This document shows positions 40,514 through 61,224 of a stretch of 64,000 bases of DNA, one piece after another. The notes under the pieces were generated by a model. It saw only the letters and a list, made by a program, of their open reading frames with translations, was not told where the DNA came from and searched no databases. This DNA is from Candidatus Iainarchaeum sp. (GTDB taxonomy: Archaea; Iainarchaeota; Iainarchaeia; Iainarchaeales; DTGL01). The position numbers were made by a program, and so were the translations under genes. Numbering within the stretch: the first letter of the stretch is position 1; every line of letters begins with the position of its first letter. The stretch lies in the NCBI GenBank assembly GCA_038895395.1, contig JAWANJ010000001.1:298-64297 (forward strand). Direction: 5' to 3'.

Positions 40514-40586
40514 GGGCCCGTAGCTCAGCTGGCAGAGCACTGGACTTTTAATCCAGGTGTCGCGGGTTCAAATCCCGTCGGGCCCA
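40514..40586 (+). tRNA. tRNA-Lys (TTT)
   Basis: GGGCCCG...CGGGCCC acceptor stem, anticodon loop CTTTTAA, T arm GCGGGTTCAAATCCCGT. Confidence 0.9.
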
Positions 40587-40587
40587 T

Positions 40588-40678
40588 GGGGCTGTGGTGT
40601 AGTCTGGTCTAGCATACCAGCTTTGGGAAATTAAATTCAAAAAAGCTGGAGACCCGGGTTCAAATCCCAGCAGCCCCA
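40588..40678 (+). tRNA. tRNA-Pro (TGG) with a ~16-nt intron after position 37
   Basis: Acceptor GGGGCTG/CAGCCCC. Anticodon stem CCAGC/GCTGG flanks TTTGGG + aaattaaattcaaaaa + A. T arm CCGGG-TTCAAAT-CCCAG has one C·A mismatch. Confidence 0.7.
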
Positions 40679-40696
40679 ATAAATTGAGGTGAGTTT

Positions 40697-43123: not shown

Positions 43124-44950
43124 TTAGACTCTTTTTACATAAATTATATTCTGTATTTTTTGTAGGTTTTCAATTATCTGCTCTAAATGTGTTCTATCTT
43201 TTATATACAAATCAAATAACCCTTTTACTATGTTCCCAGATTCAACCATAAGCTCACTTCTAACGATTTTCGCATCCATTTTTTTTAATTCTTCTAAAAG
43301 ATCCCTTAAAAGCACACCGCTTTCAAATGCCTTGATTTCAATTCTAATCACATATCGGTTCATTTCAAGTAAATGGGTTGCAATTAAAAATTTCTTTTTT
43401 TTAGGTAAACAGAAAAGCAATCTACAGTCAGTTCTGTGCACTGTTATTTTATCTCTCGAAGTTTTATACGCAACTACATCATCTCCAGGGAGGGGATTGC
43501 AGCACTTTGCAAAAATTATGTCACTTCTGTTGGCTTTATTTGGATTAAAAACCCTAAAACCTTTTGTACTTTCAAGTTCCTTCCTTATTGCAGACCTTGC
43601 TTTTGATGTTCTTGCAAAGTTTAACCAACTAGCTTTTACTGTTTTTTTTGTATCAACAAAAACACGGATTTTATCACCACTTTCTAAAACATAATTGGCT
43701 GGCCTCCTTACTCCATTTACATTTGCAAACTTAAACCTATTCCCTAAATCAGTATGAACAGCATATGCAAAATCTAAAACTGTTGCCTTTTTAGGTAAAG
43801 CAATAATATCGTGCTTTGGTGTTAGAACAAATATTGTGTTGTCAGTTAGTTTAAATTTAACATAGTTTAAGAGTCCCTTCATGTCTTTTTGCTGAAGTTC
43901 AAATAATTTTCTAGCAGCCAAAAGCGCCCCATCAAAATTAGTATATTGTTCACCTCTCTTATAACGCCAGTGAGCAGCAGCACCATACTCTGCTTCTCTG
44001 TGCATATGCACTGTCCTAATCTGTACTTCTACAGGTATGTTGGAAACTTTTGTCATAACATGTATTGACTGATAATTATTTTCCTTTGGCTTTTTAATGT
44101 AGTCATAGATTTTCCCATGTATCCCAAAATTTTGTTTTATAATGTTTAACACCTTATAGCAGTCTTCTACAGAATCGCACACCACCCTAACCCCGATGAT
44201 GTCTTTAATCTTATCGATCTCTAGATTTTCTTCAATGCTTTTTCTATAGATGCTGTAAACCCCTTTTACACGCCCCTGTACTAAGGCCTTTATTCCAAAC
44301 ATTGAGACTAACTTTTCAATATCACATTTTGCCTTCGCAAGTACTTTTTCCCCACAAACAATCTTTTCATAAATTAGCGCTTTTGTTTTTTTGTACTCTT
44401 TTGGCATAAGTATAGCCATACCCAAATCTTGTAATTCCTTACACATTTCAACTAGACCTAGTTTTTGACATATATTTGAGTAAACCTCAAGTGACAGTTT
44501 TGCTGCACGTAGTTCTCTTACGCTTGGTTTCTTTGAAGTTTTGTATATCTGACGCATTTCATCTAGGTGTGAAGCAAGCTCAACAATTATACTTCTTAAA
44601 TCCTTTGATATCGCAAGAAGTATGTTTGCCAAACCAACACTGTTTAAGTGCTCAATATTTCTTTCTTTGGCTTCGTAAATCTTGTTAACCTCCATCACAA
44701 TTTCCCTTACGTCTTCATCTACGGGTGCTAAGTTTATACAGTCCTTAAGTTCATGCAACAGTGCGGCAGAAATAGATTTTTGATCAAGACTCAAATCAAA
44801 AACAATTTTTGCAGTTCTTAGCTGATGCAAAAACCGTGTCCTTTTAGAGTTTTTCTTTGAAAACTCTAATACTTCAATAATTTTCGCAGCGTCTTTATCG
44901 AACTCTCTAAATAGCTCATCTTCTGTGAGATATAAACCACTGCCTTTCAC
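43124..44950 (-). CDS. long RelA/SpoT homologue (HD-like + (p)ppGpp synthetase + TGS + ACT domains)
   Basis: Synthetase motifs GRVKGVYSIYRKS...IGVRVVC...YQSIHVMT...RTVHMHREAEYGAAAHWRYK. TGS region VFVLTPKHDIIALPKKATVLDFAYAVHTDLG. N-terminal HD-like region with ALLHELKD (HD altered to HE). 608 aa. Confidence 0.85.
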   Translation of the reverse strand: MKGSGLYLTEDELFREFDKDAAKIIEVLEFSKKNSKRTRFLHQLRTAKIVFDLSLDQKSISAALLHELKDCINLAPVDEDVREIVMEVNKIYEAKERNIEHLNSVGLANILLAISKDLRSIIVELASHLDEMRQIYKTSKKPSVRELRAAKLSLEVYSNICQKLGLVEMCKELQDLGMAILMPKEYKKTKALIYEKIVCGEKVLAKAKCDIEKLVSMFGIKALVQGRVKGVYSIYRKSIEENLEIDKIKDIIGVRVVCDSVEDCYKVLNIIKQNFGIHGKIYDYIKKPKENNYQSIHVMTKVSNIPVEVQIRTVHMHREAEYGAAAHWRYKRGEQYTNFDGALLAARKLFELQQKDMKGLLNYVKFKLTDNTIFVLTPKHDIIALPKKATVLDFAYAVHTDLGNRFKFANVNGVRRPANYVLESGDKIRVFVDTKKTVKASWLNFARTSKARSAIRKELESTKGFRVFNPNKANRSDIIFAKCCNPLPGDDVVAYKTSRDKITVHRTDCRLLFCLPKKKKFLIATHLLEMNRYVIRIEIKAFESGVLLRDLLEELKKMDAKIVRSELMVESGNIVKGLFDLYIKDRTHLEQIIENLQKIQNIIYVKRV

Positions 44951-45071
44951 AAATGAATTTAATTAAATAAACAATAAAAAGCGATATTTGTATAAAACTC
45001 TTTTACAGATATTTTCTTCAAATGTGAGCTTACAGTATGCTTAAAAAATCATTTAAACAATATTTTATTGT

Positions 45072-45318
45072 GGGCTAGGCTGGGGAGCTAGCGGTTCCCT
45101 GTATCGGAAATCCGCTATATGCCGGGCCGAAGTTCTGGGGAAGGCTTTAGGCTAAAGGCAAAGCCATAGCATCACGTTGATGCTTTGACCCCATTGACTT
45201 CACTTTGTGGTGAACCCGCTAGGCCTGGAAGGGAGCAACGGTAGCCACACTGTGAGGTGCTATGGGAAATCAGAGCTGAGTGTTGCTATGGGGTTAACTT
45301 GTCTTTAGCCTATTGTCG
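45072..45318 (+). ncRNA. signal recognition particle RNA (7S/SRP RNA) candidate
   Basis: GC-rich structured 250-nt island in an otherwise AT-rich 385-bp intergenic gap. Contains the helix-8 signature AGGCCUGGAAGGGAGCAACGGUAGCC (compare AGGUCCGGAAGGAAGCAGCC). Also has a GNRA-capped hairpin and 5'/3' complementarity (UAGGCU...AGCCUA). Confidence 0.6.
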
Positions 45319-45336
45319 ACTTCAGAACGTGCCCAC

Positions 45337-46458
45337 TCATACTCTTTTTTTCAAACGTTCTTGTTTCCCTTTTTTTAAAGCTTCTTTAAAAAGCAAGTCA
45401 AGGCAATCCTCAAGTGCTGTTAAAAAATTCCAAGACTCAGAAAAAGCATTCAAAGAAATATTTCCGCAGGAGACTTTTGCTTTTACTGAATGTTTAACTC
45501 TCATACCTTGCTTTTTACAAGATTTAAAATGTATTGCTAAGCTAAACTCTCCTGGCAGTATCCTACTAAGCTTTTCATACATCATATTTATTTTTCTTAA
45601 AGCTCTTTCTTCATCTGGTTTTGTAAGCGGTGGCATATTTGAAAGCTGTATTTTAACTCCCTCTTTTCCCAAAGAAATTATTGCCCTTAACAAATCTTTT
45701 GTTGTAACAATTCCCTTTACCTTTTTATCATCCACCAGTAGTATGCTATCAGACTTTACTAATTCGCTTTTTGCATCAGCAACTTTTTGTGTAGGTCTAA
45801 AGCTTTTAGCTTCTTCGACAATGTCTCTAAGCCTAACTTTCAATATTTTTTTTGCTTCAGGTTCATGTCCAGTTAATGAAAAAAGACCACGTTTTGGATC
45901 CTCATGAATGAAGTACTTTTCTATTAGCCCTTCTAAAGTTATCACGCCAATGCAATTGTTTTCTCTATCAACTATTGGCACCTGCTTTATTTCATTTTTA
46001 CGCATAACTGACAAAACCTTCGCTAAATTATCATCTTCATTTAGTGTTATCGCCTCCGAGCTAAGTGCTTTCAGTTCTTTTCTAGCAAGATCTTCATCTT
46101 CTAGTGCCTTTGCCAAAATATCTTCAACTCGAACAAACCCGACTAGTGTACCACCCCTAAAAACAGGCAATATTCTCGCATTTGAGTGGTACATCAAACT
46201 TGCAATTTTTAATAGATCATCTTTTTCCGAGATACTCGGAACCTTGGTGTCAGCGATAGTTTTTACCTTCGCTTCAGAGTAAATCCTCTTTCTTTTAATG
46301 AGTTCTCTCTGAGTTAATATGCCAAAATAAGATCCATCTAAAAAAATAACCAAGTTTTTTTCTTTATTCTTCAGCATTAAACTAAATGCTTCAGAGATCT
46401 TAGATTCCCCACCTACTTGAATAATTTTAGAAGTAACCAAATCGGATGCTAAAACCAA
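45337..46458 (-). CDS. CBS-domain protein (tandem CBS pairs)
   Basis: 373 aa with four CBS-like repeats. Not checked by motif. Confidence 0.65.
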   Translation of the reverse strand: MVLASDLVTSKIIQVGGESKISEAFSLMLKNKEKNLVIFLDGSYFGILTQRELIKRKRIYSEAKVKTIADTKVPSISEKDDLLKIASLMYHSNARILPVFRGGTLVGFVRVEDILAKALEDEDLARKELKALSSEAITLNEDDNLAKVLSVMRKNEIKQVPIVDRENNCIGVITLEGLIEKYFIHEDPKRGLFSLTGHEPEAKKILKVRLRDIVEEAKSFRPTQKVADAKSELVKSDSILLVDDKKVKGIVTTKDLLRAIISLGKEGVKIQLSNMPPLTKPDEERALRKINMMYEKLSRILPGEFSLAIHFKSCKKQGMRVKHSVKAKVSCGNISLNAFSESWNFLTALEDCLDLLFKEALKKGKQERLKKRV

Positions 46459-46467
46459 AAAATCACC

Positions 46468-47145
46468 TCATTTGAAACCAGCAAGAAGATCAATAACTGC
46501 TGCTTTTTTGTCCTTAGCTTTCATAATACCTGAAGCCACAAATATGCCCTGACACCCAAGCTCTAATGCCTTTTTTACATCTGCTGTGTTCTTTATTCCA
46601 GCACCGGCTATTATTGGTATGCCACTCTTTTTACCAACTTGCAAAACCACATCGGTTATTAGCTCAGGTCTTGCTGTTGAAACTGATATGTCGCCGGATA
46701 TAAGCTCTGGAGGCTCAATTGCAATCAAATCTGGCTTTACCTCAAAGGTCACTATTTTTTTAGCTCTCTCTAGTGACTCAGCACAAGCCATAACAATTAG
46801 GCCTGCTTGCTTAGCTCTTTTTACAGCCTCGGATAAAAAATCGTCATTTTTTTTGTTTTCCGCATGGTTCAATATGGTTCCGATAGCTCCTGCCTCTTTA
46901 ACTGCTTCAGGCAATATGTGTCCCGTATACGCACCATAACTTATTGGATCTACGTGCTGAGCAAAAACAGGTAACTTGACCTTCTGTGCAATAAGCCTTA
47001 TATCGCAAGCTTGTACAACTAAAACAGTAGTTATGCCACTGCCCTTTGACGTTTGTTCAATAATCTTCGCTGTTTCAACTGCTTTAGATCCAGTGCCAGT
47101 TTCATATGTTTTAAAATTTACAAAAAGCGCTGGCAGTTTAAACAT
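46468..47145 (-). CDS. tpiA: triosephosphate isomerase, archaeal short type
   Basis: 225 aa. N-terminus LPALFVNFKTYE matches archaeal TIM. Confidence 0.8.
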   Translation of the reverse strand: MFKLPALFVNFKTYETGTGSKAVETAKIIEQTSKGSGITTVLVVQACDIRLIAQKVKLPVFAQHVDPISYGAYTGHILPEAVKEAGAIGTILNHAENKKNDDFLSEAVKRAKQAGLIVMACAESLERAKKIVTFEVKPDLIAIEPPELISGDISVSTARPELITDVVLQVGKKSGIPIIAGAGIKNTADVKKALELGCQGIFVASGIMKAKDKKAAVIDLLAGFK

Positions 47146-47215
47146 GTATCTAATTTAGGATATTAGTTTTAATAAAACTTTTGTTTGAAGTCTCATATTG
47201 TTTTTGCCACTGTCT

Positions 47216-48175
47216 TTATTCATCCACATCTTCTATTCCACGTTCGGTTATTTTATAAATAGCTTCACCATCCGGAAGGCTTGGCGAGTCAATAAGTCTT
47301 GCTATTCTCTTTTCACCCTTGCTTTGTCTTAAGTATAATCTTGTTTTTGATGCATGACCTACTATGTTTCCTCCAACAGGTGCTGTTGGGTCTCCAAAAA
47401 GTATGTCAGGTCTTTCCATTACTTGATTTGTAACCAGAACACAAAGGTTATGCATTTCAGCCATTTTTGCTAACTGGTGCATATGCTTATTCAATTTTTG
47501 TTGTCTTTCAGCTAACATGCCACGCCCAATATACTCTGCCCTGAAATGTGATGTTAATGAATCTACAATTACTAGCTTTACTCCCTCTTTTTTGACCAAA
47601 TCTTCCGCTTTTTCGGCAAGAAGTATCTGATGATCTGCATTGTAAGCCCTTGCAACAAATATGTTCTTTAGAACAGTTTTTGGGTCTAAGCCTCTTGCTT
47701 CTGCAATCTGAACTATACGTTCAGGTCTAAAACTAGACTCCGAATCAATATAAACAACCTTTCCACCCAACCCTCCTTTTTCTGGAGGTAATTGTACCAT
47801 AACACTTAATTGGAAACACCACTGAGTTTTACCTGATGCCATTTTTCCATAAACTTCTGTTATGCTCTGACTTTCAACACCACCACCTAAAAGAGCATCG
47901 AGTTCCTTGCTGCCTGTGCTTATGCGACCTATTTTTGCTCTTCTTTCATGAACCCTGTCAGCAGTTTCAAACCCCATACCAAGAGCTTCTCTAGCAGCAT
48001 TTATGGCCTTTTCAGCAGTCTTTTCTCCAAGCCCCGCTATTTCAGTAAGCTCAATAGGTGAAGCAATTGCTATGCTTTCTAATGTTTTGTAGTTCGCAGC
48101 GAAAAGCTTTTCAGCTGCTTGTGGCCCTATTCCTGGAAGATCAGTAATATCTTTGATTTTCTGTGATGAAGCCAT
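47216..48175 (-). CDS. radA: DNA repair and recombination protein RadA
   Basis: N-terminal HhH ([13 protein letters not shown]) plus RecA core with Walker A (GKMASGKTQ). 319 aa. Confidence 0.9.
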
Positions 48176-58864: not shown

Positions 58865-60241
58865 CTATCGCCAGAACTTTTTTCTCTTCTTTATTGAAAA
58901 TTTTTTAAGAATCTTTTCCATATCAATATCTTCTAAAGACTCTCTATTTGCAAACTTTTTCAATTTATTAAACATCCTTTCCATCTTTTTGTAATTTCTT
59001 AGAAGCTCTCTAACACTGGCCTCAGTGCTTCCAGAACCTCTGGCTATGCGCTTTATTCTGCTACTGTTTATTATATCTGGGTTTTTTCTTTCTTGTATTG
59101 TCATTGAATCCATTATTATTTTAAATCTCTTAAGTTTTTCTTCAGTTATTTCAATTTCCTCCTTTGGTAGTGCTTGCTTAAGGCCGAGCATCTCAGCTAT
59201 TTTGTCCAACGGACCCATGCTCATTGTAGCTTTCAGTTGCTTATAAAATATATCTAAGTTAAAGTCCTCCCCAATAAGCTCCTCTGGGCTTTCTATATCA
59301 ATTTCTTTAGCCTTTTCTAGTAAACCTTGAAGATCGGGGTACCCCATTATTCTTGCAATATATCGTTTTGCATCAAAAATTTCCAAGTCCTCTATCTTTT
59401 CACCAGTTCCTATGAAATAAACAGGTGCTTTTGTTTCTGCACATGCTGCTAAAGTGCTTCCAGCTTTAGCCGAGCCATCTGCTTTGGCTATTATTATTCC
59501 GTTAACACCAACAGCTTCGTGAAATGCCTTTGCTTGTTTTTTAGCTAACTGTCCAATATCAGCACTGAGCACAAGCCAAATCTGATCTGGTTTTAGTACA
59601 TCCTTTACTTCTTTAATCTCTTGAACCAACTCAGGGTCAAGTGCTGATCTTCCTGCAGAGTCGACAATTATAAGGCCTTTCTTTTTGAAAACTTCAACTC
59701 CTTGTTCAACAATCTTTTTAGCGCTTTTTTCACCTTTTATGCCAAAAAAATCAACTTCAATCTTCTCTGCAAGCTGTTTCAGTTGTTCGTAACTAGCAGG
59801 CCTATGAACATCAGCACATATCAATGCAACACTCAGGCCCCTCTTTTTGTAAAACCTCGCGAGCTTTGCAGCAGTTGTTGTCTTCCCTTGACCAAACAGG
59901 CCTAGCAAAAGTATGGTCTTAGGCCTTTCAGGAACTTTTGGAGAACCACCCAAAAGAGCAGAAAGTAGCTCATAGGTATTCTTTATTATAAATTCTTTTC
60001 TAGTGAGATTTTCAGGTGGTTTTTTCTTTGACAGAGCACGAATCTCATTGGTTAGGTTATATACTAGGTTTACATCAACGTCACTGGCAATTAGTGCTCT
60101 TTGAATATCTCTTATAGATTCCTCAATAGTGTCATCACTTAAAAACTTAGCACTGCTGATCTTGTCTATTGCTTTTCTAAGACCTTCGCCAAGCATAATG
60201 AAATAAGCAAGGCAAAATATTAAAATAAGGTCTTTAATCAA
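58865..60241 (-). CDS. srp54: signal recognition particle protein SRP54
   Basis: NG domain with GLFGQGKTTTAAKLA, DTAGR motif and a Met-rich M domain. Confidence 0.9.
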   Translation of the reverse strand: MIKDLILIFCLAYFIMLGEGLRKAIDKISSAKFLSDDTIEESIRDIQRALIASDVDVNLVYNLTNEIRALSKKKPPENLTRKEFIIKNTYELLSALLGGSPKVPERPKTILLLGLFGQGKTTTAAKLARFYKKRGLSVALICADVHRPASYEQLKQLAEKIEVDFFGIKGEKSAKKIVEQGVEVFKKKGLIIVDSAGRSALDPELVQEIKEVKDVLKPDQIWLVLSADIGQLAKKQAKAFHEAVGVNGIIIAKADGSAKAGSTLAACAETKAPVYFIGTGEKIEDLEIFDAKRYIARIMGYPDLQGLLEKAKEIDIESPEELIGEDFNLDIFYKQLKATMSMGPLDKIAEMLGLKQALPKEEIEITEEKLKRFKIIMDSMTIQERKNPDIINSSRIKRIARGSGSTEASVRELLRNYKKMERMFNKLKKFANRESLEDIDMEKILKKFSIKKRKKFWR

Positions 60242-61224
60242 ACGATTTTACTTATAATTTCCTCAGAATTAAACTCTTTAAGTGCATCGTAGTTCTGACC
60301 AGTTCCTACAAATATAATCGGCTTTTTAAGTTCGTATAAAATGCTTAGCATTGTGCCACCTTTCGGGTCTGCATCAACCTTTGTCATTATGAACGCATCA
60401 ACGCCTATTGCTTCATCAAATGCTTTTGCTTGGTCTAAAAGTGCTTTGCCAGCAAAAGCTTCACCTACAAAAATTTTAATGTCCGGTGATGTAACCCTTG
60501 CTATTTTCTTTAGCTCCTGAACAAGGTTTACATTGGTTTCTTGCCTCCCAGCGGTGTCAATCATTACAACATCGATTTTCTTTGCTTTTGCAGAGCTTAT
60601 GGCATCAAATGCAACTGCTGCTGGATCTGCACCGTAGCGATGTTTCACAACAGGAATATCCAACCTTTTGGCGTGCTCTTCAAGCTGTTCTATAGACGCC
60701 GCTCTAAAGGTATCACTAGCTGCAAATATTGTGCTTAGCCCATTTTCTTTGAACTTCATGGCAAGCTTTGCCATTGTGGTTGTTTTCCCCGCACCATTTG
60801 GGCCTAAAAAGAGAATCTTGAATGGTTTCTGCGCCTTTTTTGCCATTTCTACTATGTCAATACGCTCAGTTTCTGTAAGTTCTTTTAATGTATCTTTTAT
60901 AGTGTTTCTGACAAATTCATCCAGATTTTTCTTTGGTACACTTTTGCTTGTAAGTCTATTCTTTATTTCTTCGCAAAATTTTTTAGCAGTTTTGTCATTA
61001 ACATCTGCTTCTAGCAATGCGAGCTCTAGCTCTTCTATAGATTCTTTTACATCAGCTTCCCTGAGTTTTAGCTCAGCCCCAAAAACAGACTTAACCTTTG
61101 TAACTGCTTTTAGCTCTGGTGTAAAATCACGCTTTTCGATGTTTTCCACTTCTTTTAGCTCTGGGGCTTTTCTGATAATATTTGAAACAAAAGAAGAGAG
61201 CTTGTTTTTTAAAACATCAAACAT
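60238..61224 (-). CDS. ftsY: SRP receptor FtsY
   Basis: NG domain with LFLGPNGAGKTTTMAKLA and DTAGR. 4-nt overlap with srp54. Confidence 0.9.
   Translation of the reverse strand: MFDVLKNKLSSFVSNIIRKAPELKEVENIEKRDFTPELKAVTKVKSVFGAELKLREADVKESIEELELALLEADVNDKTAKKFCEEIKNRLTSKSVPKKNLDEFVRNTIKDTLKELTETERIDIVEMAKKAQKPFKILFLGPNGAGKTTTMAKLAMKFKENGLSTIFAASDTFRAASIEQLEEHAKRLDIPVVKHRYGADPAAVAFDAISSAKAKKIDVVMIDTAGRQETNVNLVQELKKIARVTSPDIKIFVGEAFAGKALLDQAKAFDEAIGVDAFIMTKVDADPKGGTMLSILYELKKPIIFVGTGQNYDALKEFNSEEIISKIV

What the first reader, a model, noticed from the sequence alone, without database searches (positions are those of the whole stretch)
44951..45336. Candidate SRP (7S) RNA in a GC-rich island within an AT-rich intergenic gap
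Positions ~45072-45318 jump to high GC and contain AGGCCUGGAAGGGAGCAACGGUAGCC. This closely matches the universally conserved SRP RNA helix-8 (domain IV) motif that binds the SRP54 M domain. A GNRA-capped hairpin and 5'/3' complementarity are also present. SRP54 and FtsY are encoded at 58.9-61.2 kb in the same window. No ORF explains this region. The listed 45257..45907 + ORF is antisense to the CBS gene.
Basis: seen in the sequence. Interest (0 to 1): 0.5.

Follow-up and report, generated by a model that had tools for sequence, protein, structure and literature searches.

The report
Archaeal SRP RNA lacking helix 6
The GC-rich island is the signal recognition particle (7S) RNA gene of a DPANN archaeon (Candidatus Iainarchaeum), an ordinary housekeeping gene, except that it and all 14 relatives examined lack helix 6, the hairpin that binds the SRP19 protein in other archaea.

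Summary
Window 45068-45338 (+) is an SRP RNA: Rfam Archaea_SRP RF01857 scores 146.3 bits (gathering score 96.5, E 1.4e-33) over the full model. RadA places the window in Candidatus Iainarchaeum (Iainarchaeota/Diapherotrites, DPANN). SRP54 and FtsY are encoded at 58.9-61.2 kb.

One feature is not ordinary. The roughly 40 model positions for helix 6, the SRP19-binding hairpin, are filled by 1 nt. Helix 5 stacks directly onto helix 8, giving a 271-nt unbranched rod plus an Alu domain.

The same deletion is present in all 14 other Iainarchaeota SRP RNAs I recovered, which sit on several RadA branches. Covariation strongly supports the unbranched fold: 94.6% of cells pair, 57 of 88 pairs show compensatory changes, and no shuffle reaches these values. 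The SRP54-binding loops and the GGAA tetraloop are invariant.

The architecture matches the Bacillus-type large bacterial SRP RNA. The sequence is nevertheless archaeal, because RF01857 wins for the whole RNA and for each half scanned alone.

I found no description of a helix-6-less archaeal SRP RNA in the searchable literature. Whether SRP19 is also lost could not be tested genome-wide. Verdict: a known gene family with a probably unreported structural variant, of moderate interest.

The parts
45041..45048 (+). TATA-box-like promoter element (TTAAAAAA), 20-27 nt upstream of the modelled 5' end
   Evidence: An A/T box (TTAAAAA, TTTTAAA or ATTAAAA) lies at the same distance upstream of all 15 Iainarchaeota SRP RNAs, while the surrounding sequence has diverged. 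Assigning it as an archaeal TATA box, with transcription starting near G45070, is inference from the spacing.
45068..45338 (+). SRP (7S) RNA gene, 271 nt, helix-6-less archaeal type
   Evidence: RF01857 scores 146.3 bits, E 1.4e-33, over model positions 1-317. MFE is -132.3 kcal/mol with z = -8.25. Orthologues were found in 14 other Iainarchaeota loci.
45070..45075 (+). Helix 1, 5' strand (pairs with 45331-45336)
   Evidence: Six base pairs. Two of the pairs show compensatory changes in relatives (helix 1; coordinates).
45078..45128 (+). Alu 5' domain: helix 2 (45078-81 with 45126-28), helix 3 (45082-88 with 45094-100), helix 4 (45104-07 with 45122-25), loop-loop pseudoknot AGCG(G) 45090-94 with (C)CGCU 45112-16, and the UGU linker 45101-03
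   Evidence: Helices 2, 3 and 4 each contain pairs with compensatory changes, and 96-100% of their cells pair. The pseudoknot is invariant. This region scanned alone is best matched by RF01857 (38.5 bits, E 2.8e-8).
45132..45203 (+). Helix 5, 5' strand (pairs with 45252-45328)
   Evidence: About 50 pairs in four segments. 43 of the 51 alignment pairs show compensatory changes (helices 6-9; coordinates).
45204..45205 (+). Junction where helix 6 branches off in canonical archaeal SRP RNA; here 2 unpaired nt on the 5' strand (45204-45205) and 2 on the 3' strand (45250-45251)
   Evidence: The 40 helix 6 model positions are filled by 1 nt. The last helix 5 pair is alignment columns 140-190 and the first helix 8 pair is 143-187.
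45206..45249 (+). Helix 8: proximal stem 45206-11 with 45244-49, asymmetric loop, middle stem 45216-18 with 45239-41, symmetric loop AGG/AGCA, apical stem 45224-26 with 45231-33, and GGAA tetraloop 45227-30. This is the SRP54 M-domain binding site.
   Evidence: The loops and tetraloop are invariant in 14 sequences, while the proximal and apical stems covary, for example CC/GG changing to UU/AA.
45252..45328 (+). Helix 5, 3' strand
45331..45336 (+). Helix 1, 3' strand
45345..45351 (+). T7 run, a candidate oligo-T termination signal. It lies inside the 3' end of the convergent CBS gene.
   Evidence: Seen directly in the sequence. T-rich sequence follows the RNA in most relatives but not all. Its role as a terminator is inference.
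58865..60241 (-). SRP54, the protein partner of the RNA
   Evidence: Pfam SRP54_N, SRP54 GTPase (E 6.5e-65) and SRP_SPB M domain (E 1.6e-28).
60238..61224 (-). FtsY, the SRP receptor. It overlaps SRP54 by 4 nt, so the two are probably co-transcribed.
   Evidence: Pfam SRP54_N and SRP54 GTPase. NCBIfam TIGR00064 ftsY scores 307 bits, above its cutoff of 260.7.

Best explanation
This is the single-copy SRP RNA gene of a Candidatus Iainarchaeum (DPANN) archaeon.

How it is made (inferred): transcription starts about 25 nt downstream of a conserved TATA box, near G45070, and probably ends around the downstream T-run.

How it folds (shown):
- A protein-free Alu domain: helix 1 closes the 5' and 3' ends, and helices 2-4 carry a loop-loop pseudoknot.
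- A long helix 5 that runs straight into helix 8.

How it works (inferred from the known SRP mechanism):
- The invariant symmetric and asymmetric loops of helix 8 bind the M domain of the SRP54 encoded 13.5 kb away.
- The GGAA tetraloop promotes docking of the SRP54-FtsY GTPase complex.
- The Alu domain contacts the ribosomal elongation-factor site.

Unlike every archaeal SRP RNA described in the literature I could read, it has no helix 6, and the same holds for the 14 Iainarchaeota relatives examined. The particle therefore has no primary SRP19 binding site. It should work as a two-component SRP (RNA plus SRP54), as in Bacillus-type bacteria. I predict that SRP19 has been lost or is unused in this lineage, but I could not test this.
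For: - Family assignment: RF01857 scores 146.3 bits against a gathering score of 96.5, E 1.4e-33, over the full model.
- Helix 6 deletion: 40 model positions are filled by 1 nt in the window. They are filled by 0 nt in L001, L050, L054 and L056, L025, and L002, L004, L005 and L028 (alignments shown). L003, L014, L122 and L130 hit RF01857 at the same short length, 274-276 nt. L023 (282 nt) was placed by motif search and homology to L005 and aligns to the same unbranched fold. Canonical archaeal hits in the same searches are 308-315 nt.
- Fold: the MFE structure is a single unbranched rod, z = -8.25. RNAalifold on 14 sequences gives 84 pairs, 51 of them compensatory.
- Covariation with a hand-specified structure: 94.6% of cells pair against 81.4% in shuffles. 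57 of 88 pairs have double changes against 28.4 in shuffles. No shuffle in 500 reaches the observed value on any measure. Register slides fall to 40-52% paired.
- Functional core: the SRP54-binding loops and the GGAA tetraloop are invariant while the neighbouring stems covary.
- Expression signal: a conserved TATA-like box lies upstream in all 15 loci.
- Partner proteins: SRP54 with its M domain and FtsY are in the window.
- Host: archaeal, Iainarchaeota.
- Sequence signature: the Alu 5' domain and the S domain are each best matched by RF01857 when scanned alone. Bacterial large SRP RNAs with the same architecture and the same helix 8 motif are correctly assigned to RF01854.
- Spread: helix-6-less RNAs fall on several RadA branches.
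- Prior knowledge: SRP19 was reported in all archaeal subgroups known in 2010 and co-occurs with helix 6 (PMC2905702). SRP19 is dispensable in Haloferax according to that review and PMC6098224.
Against: - There are no expression data, so the transcript ends are inferred.
- SRP19 absence was tested only in this 64-kb window and in about 0.95 Mb of fragments from other Iainarchaeota genomes. It was not tested genome-wide.
- A second, canonical SRP RNA elsewhere in the genome cannot be excluded from a 64-kb window.
- The UGUNR motif of the Alu domain is imperfect here (UGUAU) and eroded in some relatives (UGCUC, UAUUC), so Alu function may be altered.
- The T-run lies inside the CBS coding region and is not conserved in all relatives.
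- The deepest RadA branch (L039, L043, L057) and the cluster containing Ca. I. andersonii were not sampled for SRP RNA.
Confidence: 0.9

Rival explanations
1. It is a bacterial-type large (Bacillus-like 6S) SRP RNA that Iainarchaeota acquired horizontally and that replaced the ancestral archaeal 7S RNA. On this reading it is not an archaeal RNA that lost helix 6.
For: - The architecture is identical to RF01854-type RNAs: helix 1, helices 2-4, helix 5 and helix 8, with no helix 6, at about 262-271 nt (sequences).
- Helix 1 and the protein-free Alu fold are shared by bacteria and archaea (PMC4231752).
- The helix 8 sequence GAACCCCGCUAGGCCCGGAAGGGAGCAACGGUA is nearly identical to that of several bacterial large SRP RNAs.
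- The adjacent gene is a long RelA/SpoT homologue of bacterial type, which suggests gene transfer in this neighbourhood.
- The window RNA also passes the gathering score of two other SRP-clan families, which the tool hides as lower-scoring overlaps.
Against: - RF01857 outscores all other clan members for the whole RNA despite the 40-nt deletion penalty.
- RF01857 also wins for the Alu 5' domain alone and for the S domain alone.
- In the same scans, true bacterial large SRP RNAs carrying the same helix 8 motif are assigned to RF01854 with 105-174 bits, so the models do discriminate.
- The metagenome hits were selected by that helix 8 motif, so similarity in that region is partly a selection effect.
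Confidence: 0.07
2. It is a decaying or secondary SRP RNA copy, and the working canonical 7S RNA with helix 6 lies elsewhere in the genome.
For: Only 64 kb of the genome is visible. The UGUNR motif is imperfect.
Against: - It is conserved in 15 independent assemblies with strong compensatory covariation and invariant protein-binding loops.
- The upstream promoter-like box is conserved.
- No Iainarchaeota SRP RNA with helix 6 was seen in any held locus.
- Archaeal genomes normally carry one SRP RNA gene (general knowledge).
Confidence: 0.02
3. It is a chance GC-rich island or another structured RNA that merely contains an SRP-like motif.
For: The short loop motif alone is not statistically significant in 64 kb (1 match against 0.32 expected).
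Against: The full-length covariance-model match has E 1.4e-33. All domains are present in the canonical order, and covariation across 14 orthologues supports them.
Confidence: 0.01

Closest known systems
Canonical archaeal SRP (7S) RNA, Rfam RF01857 (for example Methanocaldococcus jannaschii, Archaeoglobus fulgidus)
   Same: - Best-scoring family for the whole RNA and for each half.
- Helix 1, helices 2-4 with the loop-loop pseudoknot, a long helix 5, and helix 8 with the AGG/AGCA symmetric loop and GGAA tetraloop.
- Archaeal host, with SRP54 and FtsY as partners.
   Different: Helix 6, the roughly 40-nt SRP19-binding hairpin with a GNAR loop, is absent. With it goes the helix 6-helix 8 adenosine clamp that the 2010 review expected in all archaeal SRP RNAs (PMC2905702). 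The RNA is 271 nt, against about 300-317 nt. The UGUNR motif is imperfect.
Bacterial large SRP RNA (6S/scRNA, Bacillus subtilis type), Rfam RF01854
   Same: The same set of helices (1, 2, 3, 4, 5, 8; no helix 6), similar length, and a protein-free closed Alu fold with helix 1 (PMC4231752). The particle is built with SRP54/Ffh only and no SRP19. This is what the Iainarchaeum RNA most probably works like.
   Different: It scores lower than RF01857 on this RNA in every scan. The host is an archaeon, and the gene sits among archaeal genes (RadA, archaeal TIM). It is therefore not a member by sequence.
Other non-canonical archaeal SRP RNAs: the permuted, circularised SRP RNA of Thermoproteus (PMC4731332)
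   Same: An example of lineage-specific remodelling of the archaeal SRP RNA.
   Different: According to its abstract, Thermoproteus species keep SRP19 and SRP54, and circularisation restores the function of the rearranged RNA gene. In Iainarchaeota the gene is collinear and a whole helix is deleted.
Bacterial 4.5S RNA, Rfam RF00169
   Same: Helix 8 and SRP54/Ffh binding without helix 6 or SRP19.
   Different: 4.5S RNA has no Alu domain and is about 100-115 nt. The window RNA keeps a complete Alu domain.

Membership tests
Archaea_SRP (Rfam RF01857) | Covariance-model score at or above the curated gathering score (96.5 bits), and best in clan CL00003 | tested here: met
   146.3 bits, E 1.4e-33, model positions 1-317, not truncated. 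RF01857 is also best for each half scanned alone.
Archaea_SRP (Rfam RF01857) | Helix 8 with conserved symmetric (AGG/AGCA) and asymmetric loops and a GNRA tetraloop (the SRP54 M-domain site) | tested here: met
   45206-45249, with GGAA at 45227-30. The loops are invariant in 14 orthologues while the stems covary.
Archaea_SRP (Rfam RF01857) | Alu domain: helices 2, 3 and 4 with a loop-loop tertiary pairing, closed by helix 1 (5'/3' pairing) | tested here: met
   Helix 1 is 45070-75 with 45331-36. Helices 2-4 lie at 45078-45128. The AGCG(G)/(C)CGCU pseudoknot is invariant. Covariation occurs in helices 1, 2, 3 and 4.
Archaea_SRP (Rfam RF01857) | UGUNR motif linking helices 3 and 4 | tested here: inconclusive
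   The window has UGUAU and L001 has UGUAC, so the fifth base is a pyrimidine. L054 has UGCUC and L130 has UAUUC. UGU is kept in most sequences but the full consensus is not.
Archaea_SRP (Rfam RF01857) | Helix 6 (the SRP19-binding hairpin, GNAR loop) forming a three-way junction with helices 5 and 8 | tested here: not met
   The 40 model positions are filled by 1 nt in the window and by 0 nt in every relative whose alignment was shown. Only 2 unpaired nt per strand separate helix 5 from helix 8. It is therefore an atypical member, assigned by model score but lacking one canonical helix.
Archaeal SRP particle | SRP54 and FtsY encoded in the genome | tested here: met
   SRP54 at 58865-60241 (N, G and M domains) and FtsY at 60238-61224.
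Archaeal SRP particle | SRP19 (PF01922) encoded in the genome | not testable with these tools
   No SRP19-like ORF was found in the window or in about 0.95 Mb of Iainarchaeota fragments, while a spiked control was recovered at 1e-41. No whole genome could be searched. Database routes gave no taxonomically usable answer.
Bacteria_large_SRP (Rfam RF01854) | Best-scoring clan member, in a bacterial host | tested here: not met
   RF01857 outscores it on the whole RNA and on both halves. The host is Iainarchaeota. Bacterial large SRP RNAs are correctly assigned in the same scans.
Bacteria_large_SRP (Rfam RF01854) | Architecture: Alu domain with helix 1, helix 5 and helix 8, without helix 6 | tested here: met
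   This is a resemblance in architecture and probable mode of action only.

The most novel reading that the evidence does not exclude
Iainarchaeota, and possibly other DPANN lineages, have lost both SRP RNA helix 6 and the SRP19 protein. If so, they run a two-component SRP (7S-like RNA plus SRP54) of bacterial composition on an archaeal sequence background. They would be the first archaeal lineage known to lack the helix 6/SRP19 module, and a natural experiment showing that the module is dispensable for the archaeal SRP.
Probability: 0.55. Interest if true: 0.55.

Novelty: new variant of a known kind. Interest (0 to 1): 0.42.

Why it matters
As a gene call, this fills in an ordinary housekeeping RNA that protein-centred annotation of metagenome-assembled genomes often misses. 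That alone has little interest.

The structural variant is more informative. Reviews treat helix 6 plus SRP19 as a universal feature of the archaeal and eukaryotic SRP, one that separates it from the bacterial particle. Genetics in Haloferax showed that SRP19 is dispensable in the laboratory.

A whole archaeal lineage that has deleted the SRP19 docking helix, while keeping the Alu domain and the SRP54 site under strong purifying selection, would show the same dispensability in nature. It would give a clean system for asking what helix 6 and SRP19 contribute, whether RNA pre-organisation, thermostability or assembly. It would also add a marker of reductive evolution in DPANN.

On the practical side, covariance-model pipelines that require full-length architecture, and completeness estimates that expect SRP19, should allow for this variant.

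Tried and rejected
1. Exact-sequence look-ups of the window's CBS and RadA proteins found nothing, so the source assembly is not in the gene index.

2. My first helix 8 motif search, which allowed up to 2 substitutions, missed half of the relatives because the apical stem has covaried from CC/GG to UU/AA. A first relaxed regex was off by one base and found nothing. The corrected version worked.

Most of the helix-6-less hits turned out to be bacterial large or small SRP RNAs, not archaeal ones. Only L122 and L130 were Iainarchaeota.

4. RNAalifold and the MFE fold merge helices 3 and 4, because the loop-loop pseudoknot competes as a helix. I replaced that part with the Rfam arrangement before counting pairs.

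5. The bacterial-HGT hypothesis was considered seriously and then downgraded after the split Rfam scans.

6. NCBIfam could not type SRP54 as archaeal or bacterial: ffh scored 357 bits and SRP54_euk 345 bits, both below their cutoffs.

7. SRP19 attempts:
- Local HMM searches were negative but cover little of any one genome.
- The k-mer-seeded homologue search reached only Methanocaldococcus, Archaeoglobi and vertebrates.
- The full HMMER search gave 1,977 clusters but shows only 150, without names.
- Names for the ten most AT-biased hits pointed to Methanobacteriaceae, Thermoproteota and Bathyarchaeota.
- A bait search returned five unnamed hits.

8. Literature: no paper in the library links SRP19 or helix 6 loss to DPANN. 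The supplements of PMC7414124 do not list SRP19. The Diapherotrites genome paper PMC4303637 is not held.

Full report
**Observation**

All of this is present.
- GC content in 100-nt windows rises to 0.45-0.53 across 45050-45349. The flanks are 0.21-0.36 and the window mean is 0.365.
- The 26-mer AGGCCTGGAAGGGAGCAACGGTAGCC lies at 45221-45246, with the GGAA tetraloop at 45227-30.
- The 5' and 3' ends pair: GUGGGC 45070-75 with GCCCAC 45331-36.
- Pfam confirms SRP54 (58865-60241, N, G and M domains) and FtsY (60238-61224). It also confirms that the gene abutting the island (45337-46458) has four CBS domains. The antisense ORF 45257-45907 matches nothing.

**Identity**

A scan of the whole window against Rfam 15 gives one non-tRNA hit: RF01857 Archaea_SRP at 45068-45338 (+). 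It scores 146.3 bits against a gathering score of 96.5, with E 1.4e-33, over model positions 1-317 without truncation. The plus strand folds to -132.3 kcal/mol, z = -8.25 against dinucleotide shuffles.

**Organism**

RadA (47216-48175) retrieved 57 loci from Candidatus Iainarchaeum / Iainarchaeota (Diapherotrites, DPANN) MAGs at 65-92% identity. The next-best hits were Asgard loci at 42-44%. The rest of the window is archaeal:
- an archaeal-type TIM;
- by my reading of the ORF list (only prefoldin, FtsY and SRP54 were checked with profile searches), the conserved archaeal cluster rps19e, rpl39e, rpl31e, eIF6, prefoldin, FtsY and SRP54.

**The unexpected feature**

In the Rfam alignment, the roughly 40 model positions between the 5' strand of helix 5 and helix 8 are filled by a single nucleotide. 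In one alignment this hidden segment is bracketed as a hairpin. It corresponds to helix 6, the SRP19 binding site. The RNA is 271 nt rather than about 310, and its MFE structure is one unbranched rod from helix 5 into helix 8.

This is not an assembly accident, because I recovered 14 further Iainarchaeota SRP RNAs.
- L001, L050, L054 and L056 score 140-162 bits.
- L122 and L130 come from metagenomes and score 163-167 bits.
- L025 is cut at the 3' end by the locus boundary and scores 87 bits.
- L002, L003, L004, L005, L014 and L028 score 137-152 bits.
- L023 was located by motif and homology.

Every alignment shown has the helix 6 segment at 0 nt. All full-length copies are 269-282 nt. Canonical archaeal SRP RNAs picked up in the same scans are 308-315 nt and have a hairpin loop about 40 nt upstream of the helix 8 motif.

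**Fold support**

The 14 full-length sequences (alignment A2, 75% mean identity) give an RNAalifold consensus of 84 pairs, 51 with compensatory changes, and no branch at the helix 5/helix 8 junction. I then specified the Rfam-style Alu domain by hand (helices 2, 3 and 4 plus the loop-loop pseudoknot) and kept the rod. The pair counts on that structure were:
- 94.6% of 1,226 cells form standard pairs, against 81.4% in shuffles.
- 57 of 88 pairs carry changes on both sides, against 28.4 in shuffles.
- The covariation score is 0.525 against 0.26.
- No shuffle in 500 reaches the observed value on any measure.
- Sliding the 3' partners by 1-3 columns drops pairing to 40-52% and the covariation score to 0.10-0.20.

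The continuous stack across the junction (alignment columns 127-148 with 182-204) has 14 of 17 pairs with double changes. It leaves only 2 unpaired nt per strand where a three-way junction would sit.

The helix 8 loops and tetraloop (AA.CCGC.AG....GGAAG..AGCAACGGU) are invariant, while the apical stem switches from CC/GG to UU/AA. That is the expected signature of a conserved protein-binding site flanked by structurally constrained stems.

**Expression signals**

All 15 loci have an A/T box (TTAAAAA, TTTTAAA or ATTAAAA) 20-27 nt upstream of the modelled 5' end, within otherwise diverged sequence. In the window it is at 45041-48. With the usual archaeal spacing this places the start near G45070, the first base of helix 1 (inference). 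A T7 run follows at 45345-51. Downstream T-richness is common among the relatives but not universal.

**Archaeal RNA or bacterial import?**

Without helix 6, the architecture (helices 1, 2-4, 5 and 8; about 270 nt) is that of the Bacillus-type large SRP RNA. Helix 1 and a protein-free closed Alu fold are shared by bacteria and archaea (PMC4231752). The upstream neighbour is a long RelA/SpoT homologue of bacterial type. I therefore tested horizontal acquisition.
- RF01857 wins clan competition for the whole RNA.
- It wins for the Alu 5' domain alone, at 38.5 bits and E 2.8e-8.
- It wins for the S domain alone, at 50 bits and E 4.4e-11, even with the deletion penalty.
- As an internal control, metagenomic RNAs with the same helix 8 motif and the same architecture but bacterial sequence are assigned to RF01854 at 105-174 bits.

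I conclude that this is an archaeal SRP RNA that lost helix 6, and I give about 7% to the HGT rival.

**Phylogenetic spread**

On a RadA neighbour-joining tree, the loci with a recovered SRP RNA fall on several branches: the clade holding the window, L001, L050, L002-4, L028 and L005, and separately L025, L023 and L014. No Iainarchaeota SRP RNA with helix 6 was seen. The deepest branch (L039, L043, L057) and the cluster containing Ca. I. andersonii (L052) are unsampled, because their SRP RNA is not within 10 kb of RadA.

**Mechanism**

Shown:
- the fold and its conservation;
- SRP54 and FtsY in the window;
- the absence of helix 6.

Inferred from the established SRP mechanism:
- The SRP54 M domain binds the helix 8 loops.
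- The GGAA tetraloop assists assembly of the SRP54-FtsY complex.
- The Alu domain occupies the ribosomal factor site.

SRP19 binds primarily to the helix 6 tetraloop, and it co-occurs with helix 6 (PMC2905702). Archaeal SRP54 binds 7S RNA without SRP19, and SRP19 is dispensable in Haloferax (PMC2905702, PMC6098224). The particle here should therefore be RNA plus SRP54 only. I predict that SRP19 has been lost.

**What could not be settled**

SRP19 status is the main gap.
- Local profile searches find no SRP19-like ORF in the window or in any held locus, while a spiked control is recovered. This covers only a fraction of any one genome.
- The database routes did not give taxonomically resolved answers.
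- The literature available here is silent on the question.
- A second SRP RNA copy elsewhere in the genome is unlikely but has not been excluded.

**Novelty and score**

The gene itself belongs to a well-known family. The helix-6-less archaeal architecture contradicts the generalisation in the 2010 review that the helix 6-helix 8 clamp exists in all archaeal SRP RNAs and that SRP19 is found in all archaeal subgroups. I found no later description of it.

I rate it a new variant of a known kind and set interest at 0.42. It would be modestly surprising to SRP specialists and is directly testable, but it is mechanistically unsurprising given that SRP19 is known to be dispensable in archaea.

Noticed in passing
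window 43124-44950 (-): A full-length long RelA/SpoT homologue (HD_4, RelA_SpoT, TGS and ACT_4 domains; TIGR00691 at 390 bits, below its cutoff) lies divergently next to the SRP RNA. Long (p)ppGpp synthetase/hydrolases are typical of bacteria and uncommon in archaea. tblastn finds it near TIM, CBS and the SRP RNA in 10 Iainarchaeota loci at 28-51% identity. It may reflect an old bacterial-to-DPANN gene transfer.
   Followed up: partly
window 40514-40679 (+): tRNA-Lys (40514-40586) is followed, without a spacer, by a 91-93-nt tRNA-like gene. ARAGORN cannot type it ('tRNA-???') and Rfam scores it at 50.9 bits. It is probably an intron-containing or otherwise atypical archaeal tRNA. The same pair occurs in L050.
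   Followed up: no
window 45101-45105; alignment A1 columns 33-38: The UGUNR motif of the Alu domain is imperfect in the window (UGUAU) and eroded in one subclade (UGCUC in L054, UAUUC in L130). The rest of the Alu domain stays strongly conserved. The 2010 review links UGUNR loss to 'hinge-impaired' SRP RNAs.
   Followed up: partly
L025 20889-20905: In this Iainarchaeota MAG the otherwise invariant AGCA of the helix 8 symmetric loop reads UGCA (AGGCCUGGAAGGGUGCA). This is a change in the core SRP54-binding motif.
   Followed up: no
L056 10001-14651 and L028 14128-18252, compared with window 43124-48175: The block TIM-CBS-SRP RNA is inverted relative to RadA and the RelA/SpoT gene between Iainarchaeota sublineages, but the SRP RNA stays next to the CBS gene. 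In the window's clade the RNA's 3' end abuts the CBS stop codon, so the two genes converge.
   Followed up: partly
window 58865-61224 (-): FtsY and SRP54 overlap by 4 nt (60238-60241) and follow prefoldin alpha and a run of small ORFs that look like ribosomal-protein genes. They probably form one operon. SRP54 scores almost equally on the bacterial ffh model (357 bits) and the SRP54_euk model (345 bits) in NCBIfam, below both cutoffs.
   Followed up: partly
L069 1077-1314 (-): This hot-spring metagenome contig carries an archaeal SRP RNA hit that covers only model positions 65-308 (131 bits, not cut by a contig end). It has helix 6 but apparently lacks the Alu 5' domain, which is a different kind of reduced archaeal SRP RNA.
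   Followed up: no
L106, L121, L137 and others (metagenome loci): Many bacterial large SRP RNAs (RF01854) share an almost identical helix 8 sequence with Iainarchaeota (GAACCCCGCUAGGCCCGGAAGGGAGCAACGGUA), including GGGAGCA in place of the GGAAGCA that I recall as the usual bacterial form.
   Followed up: no
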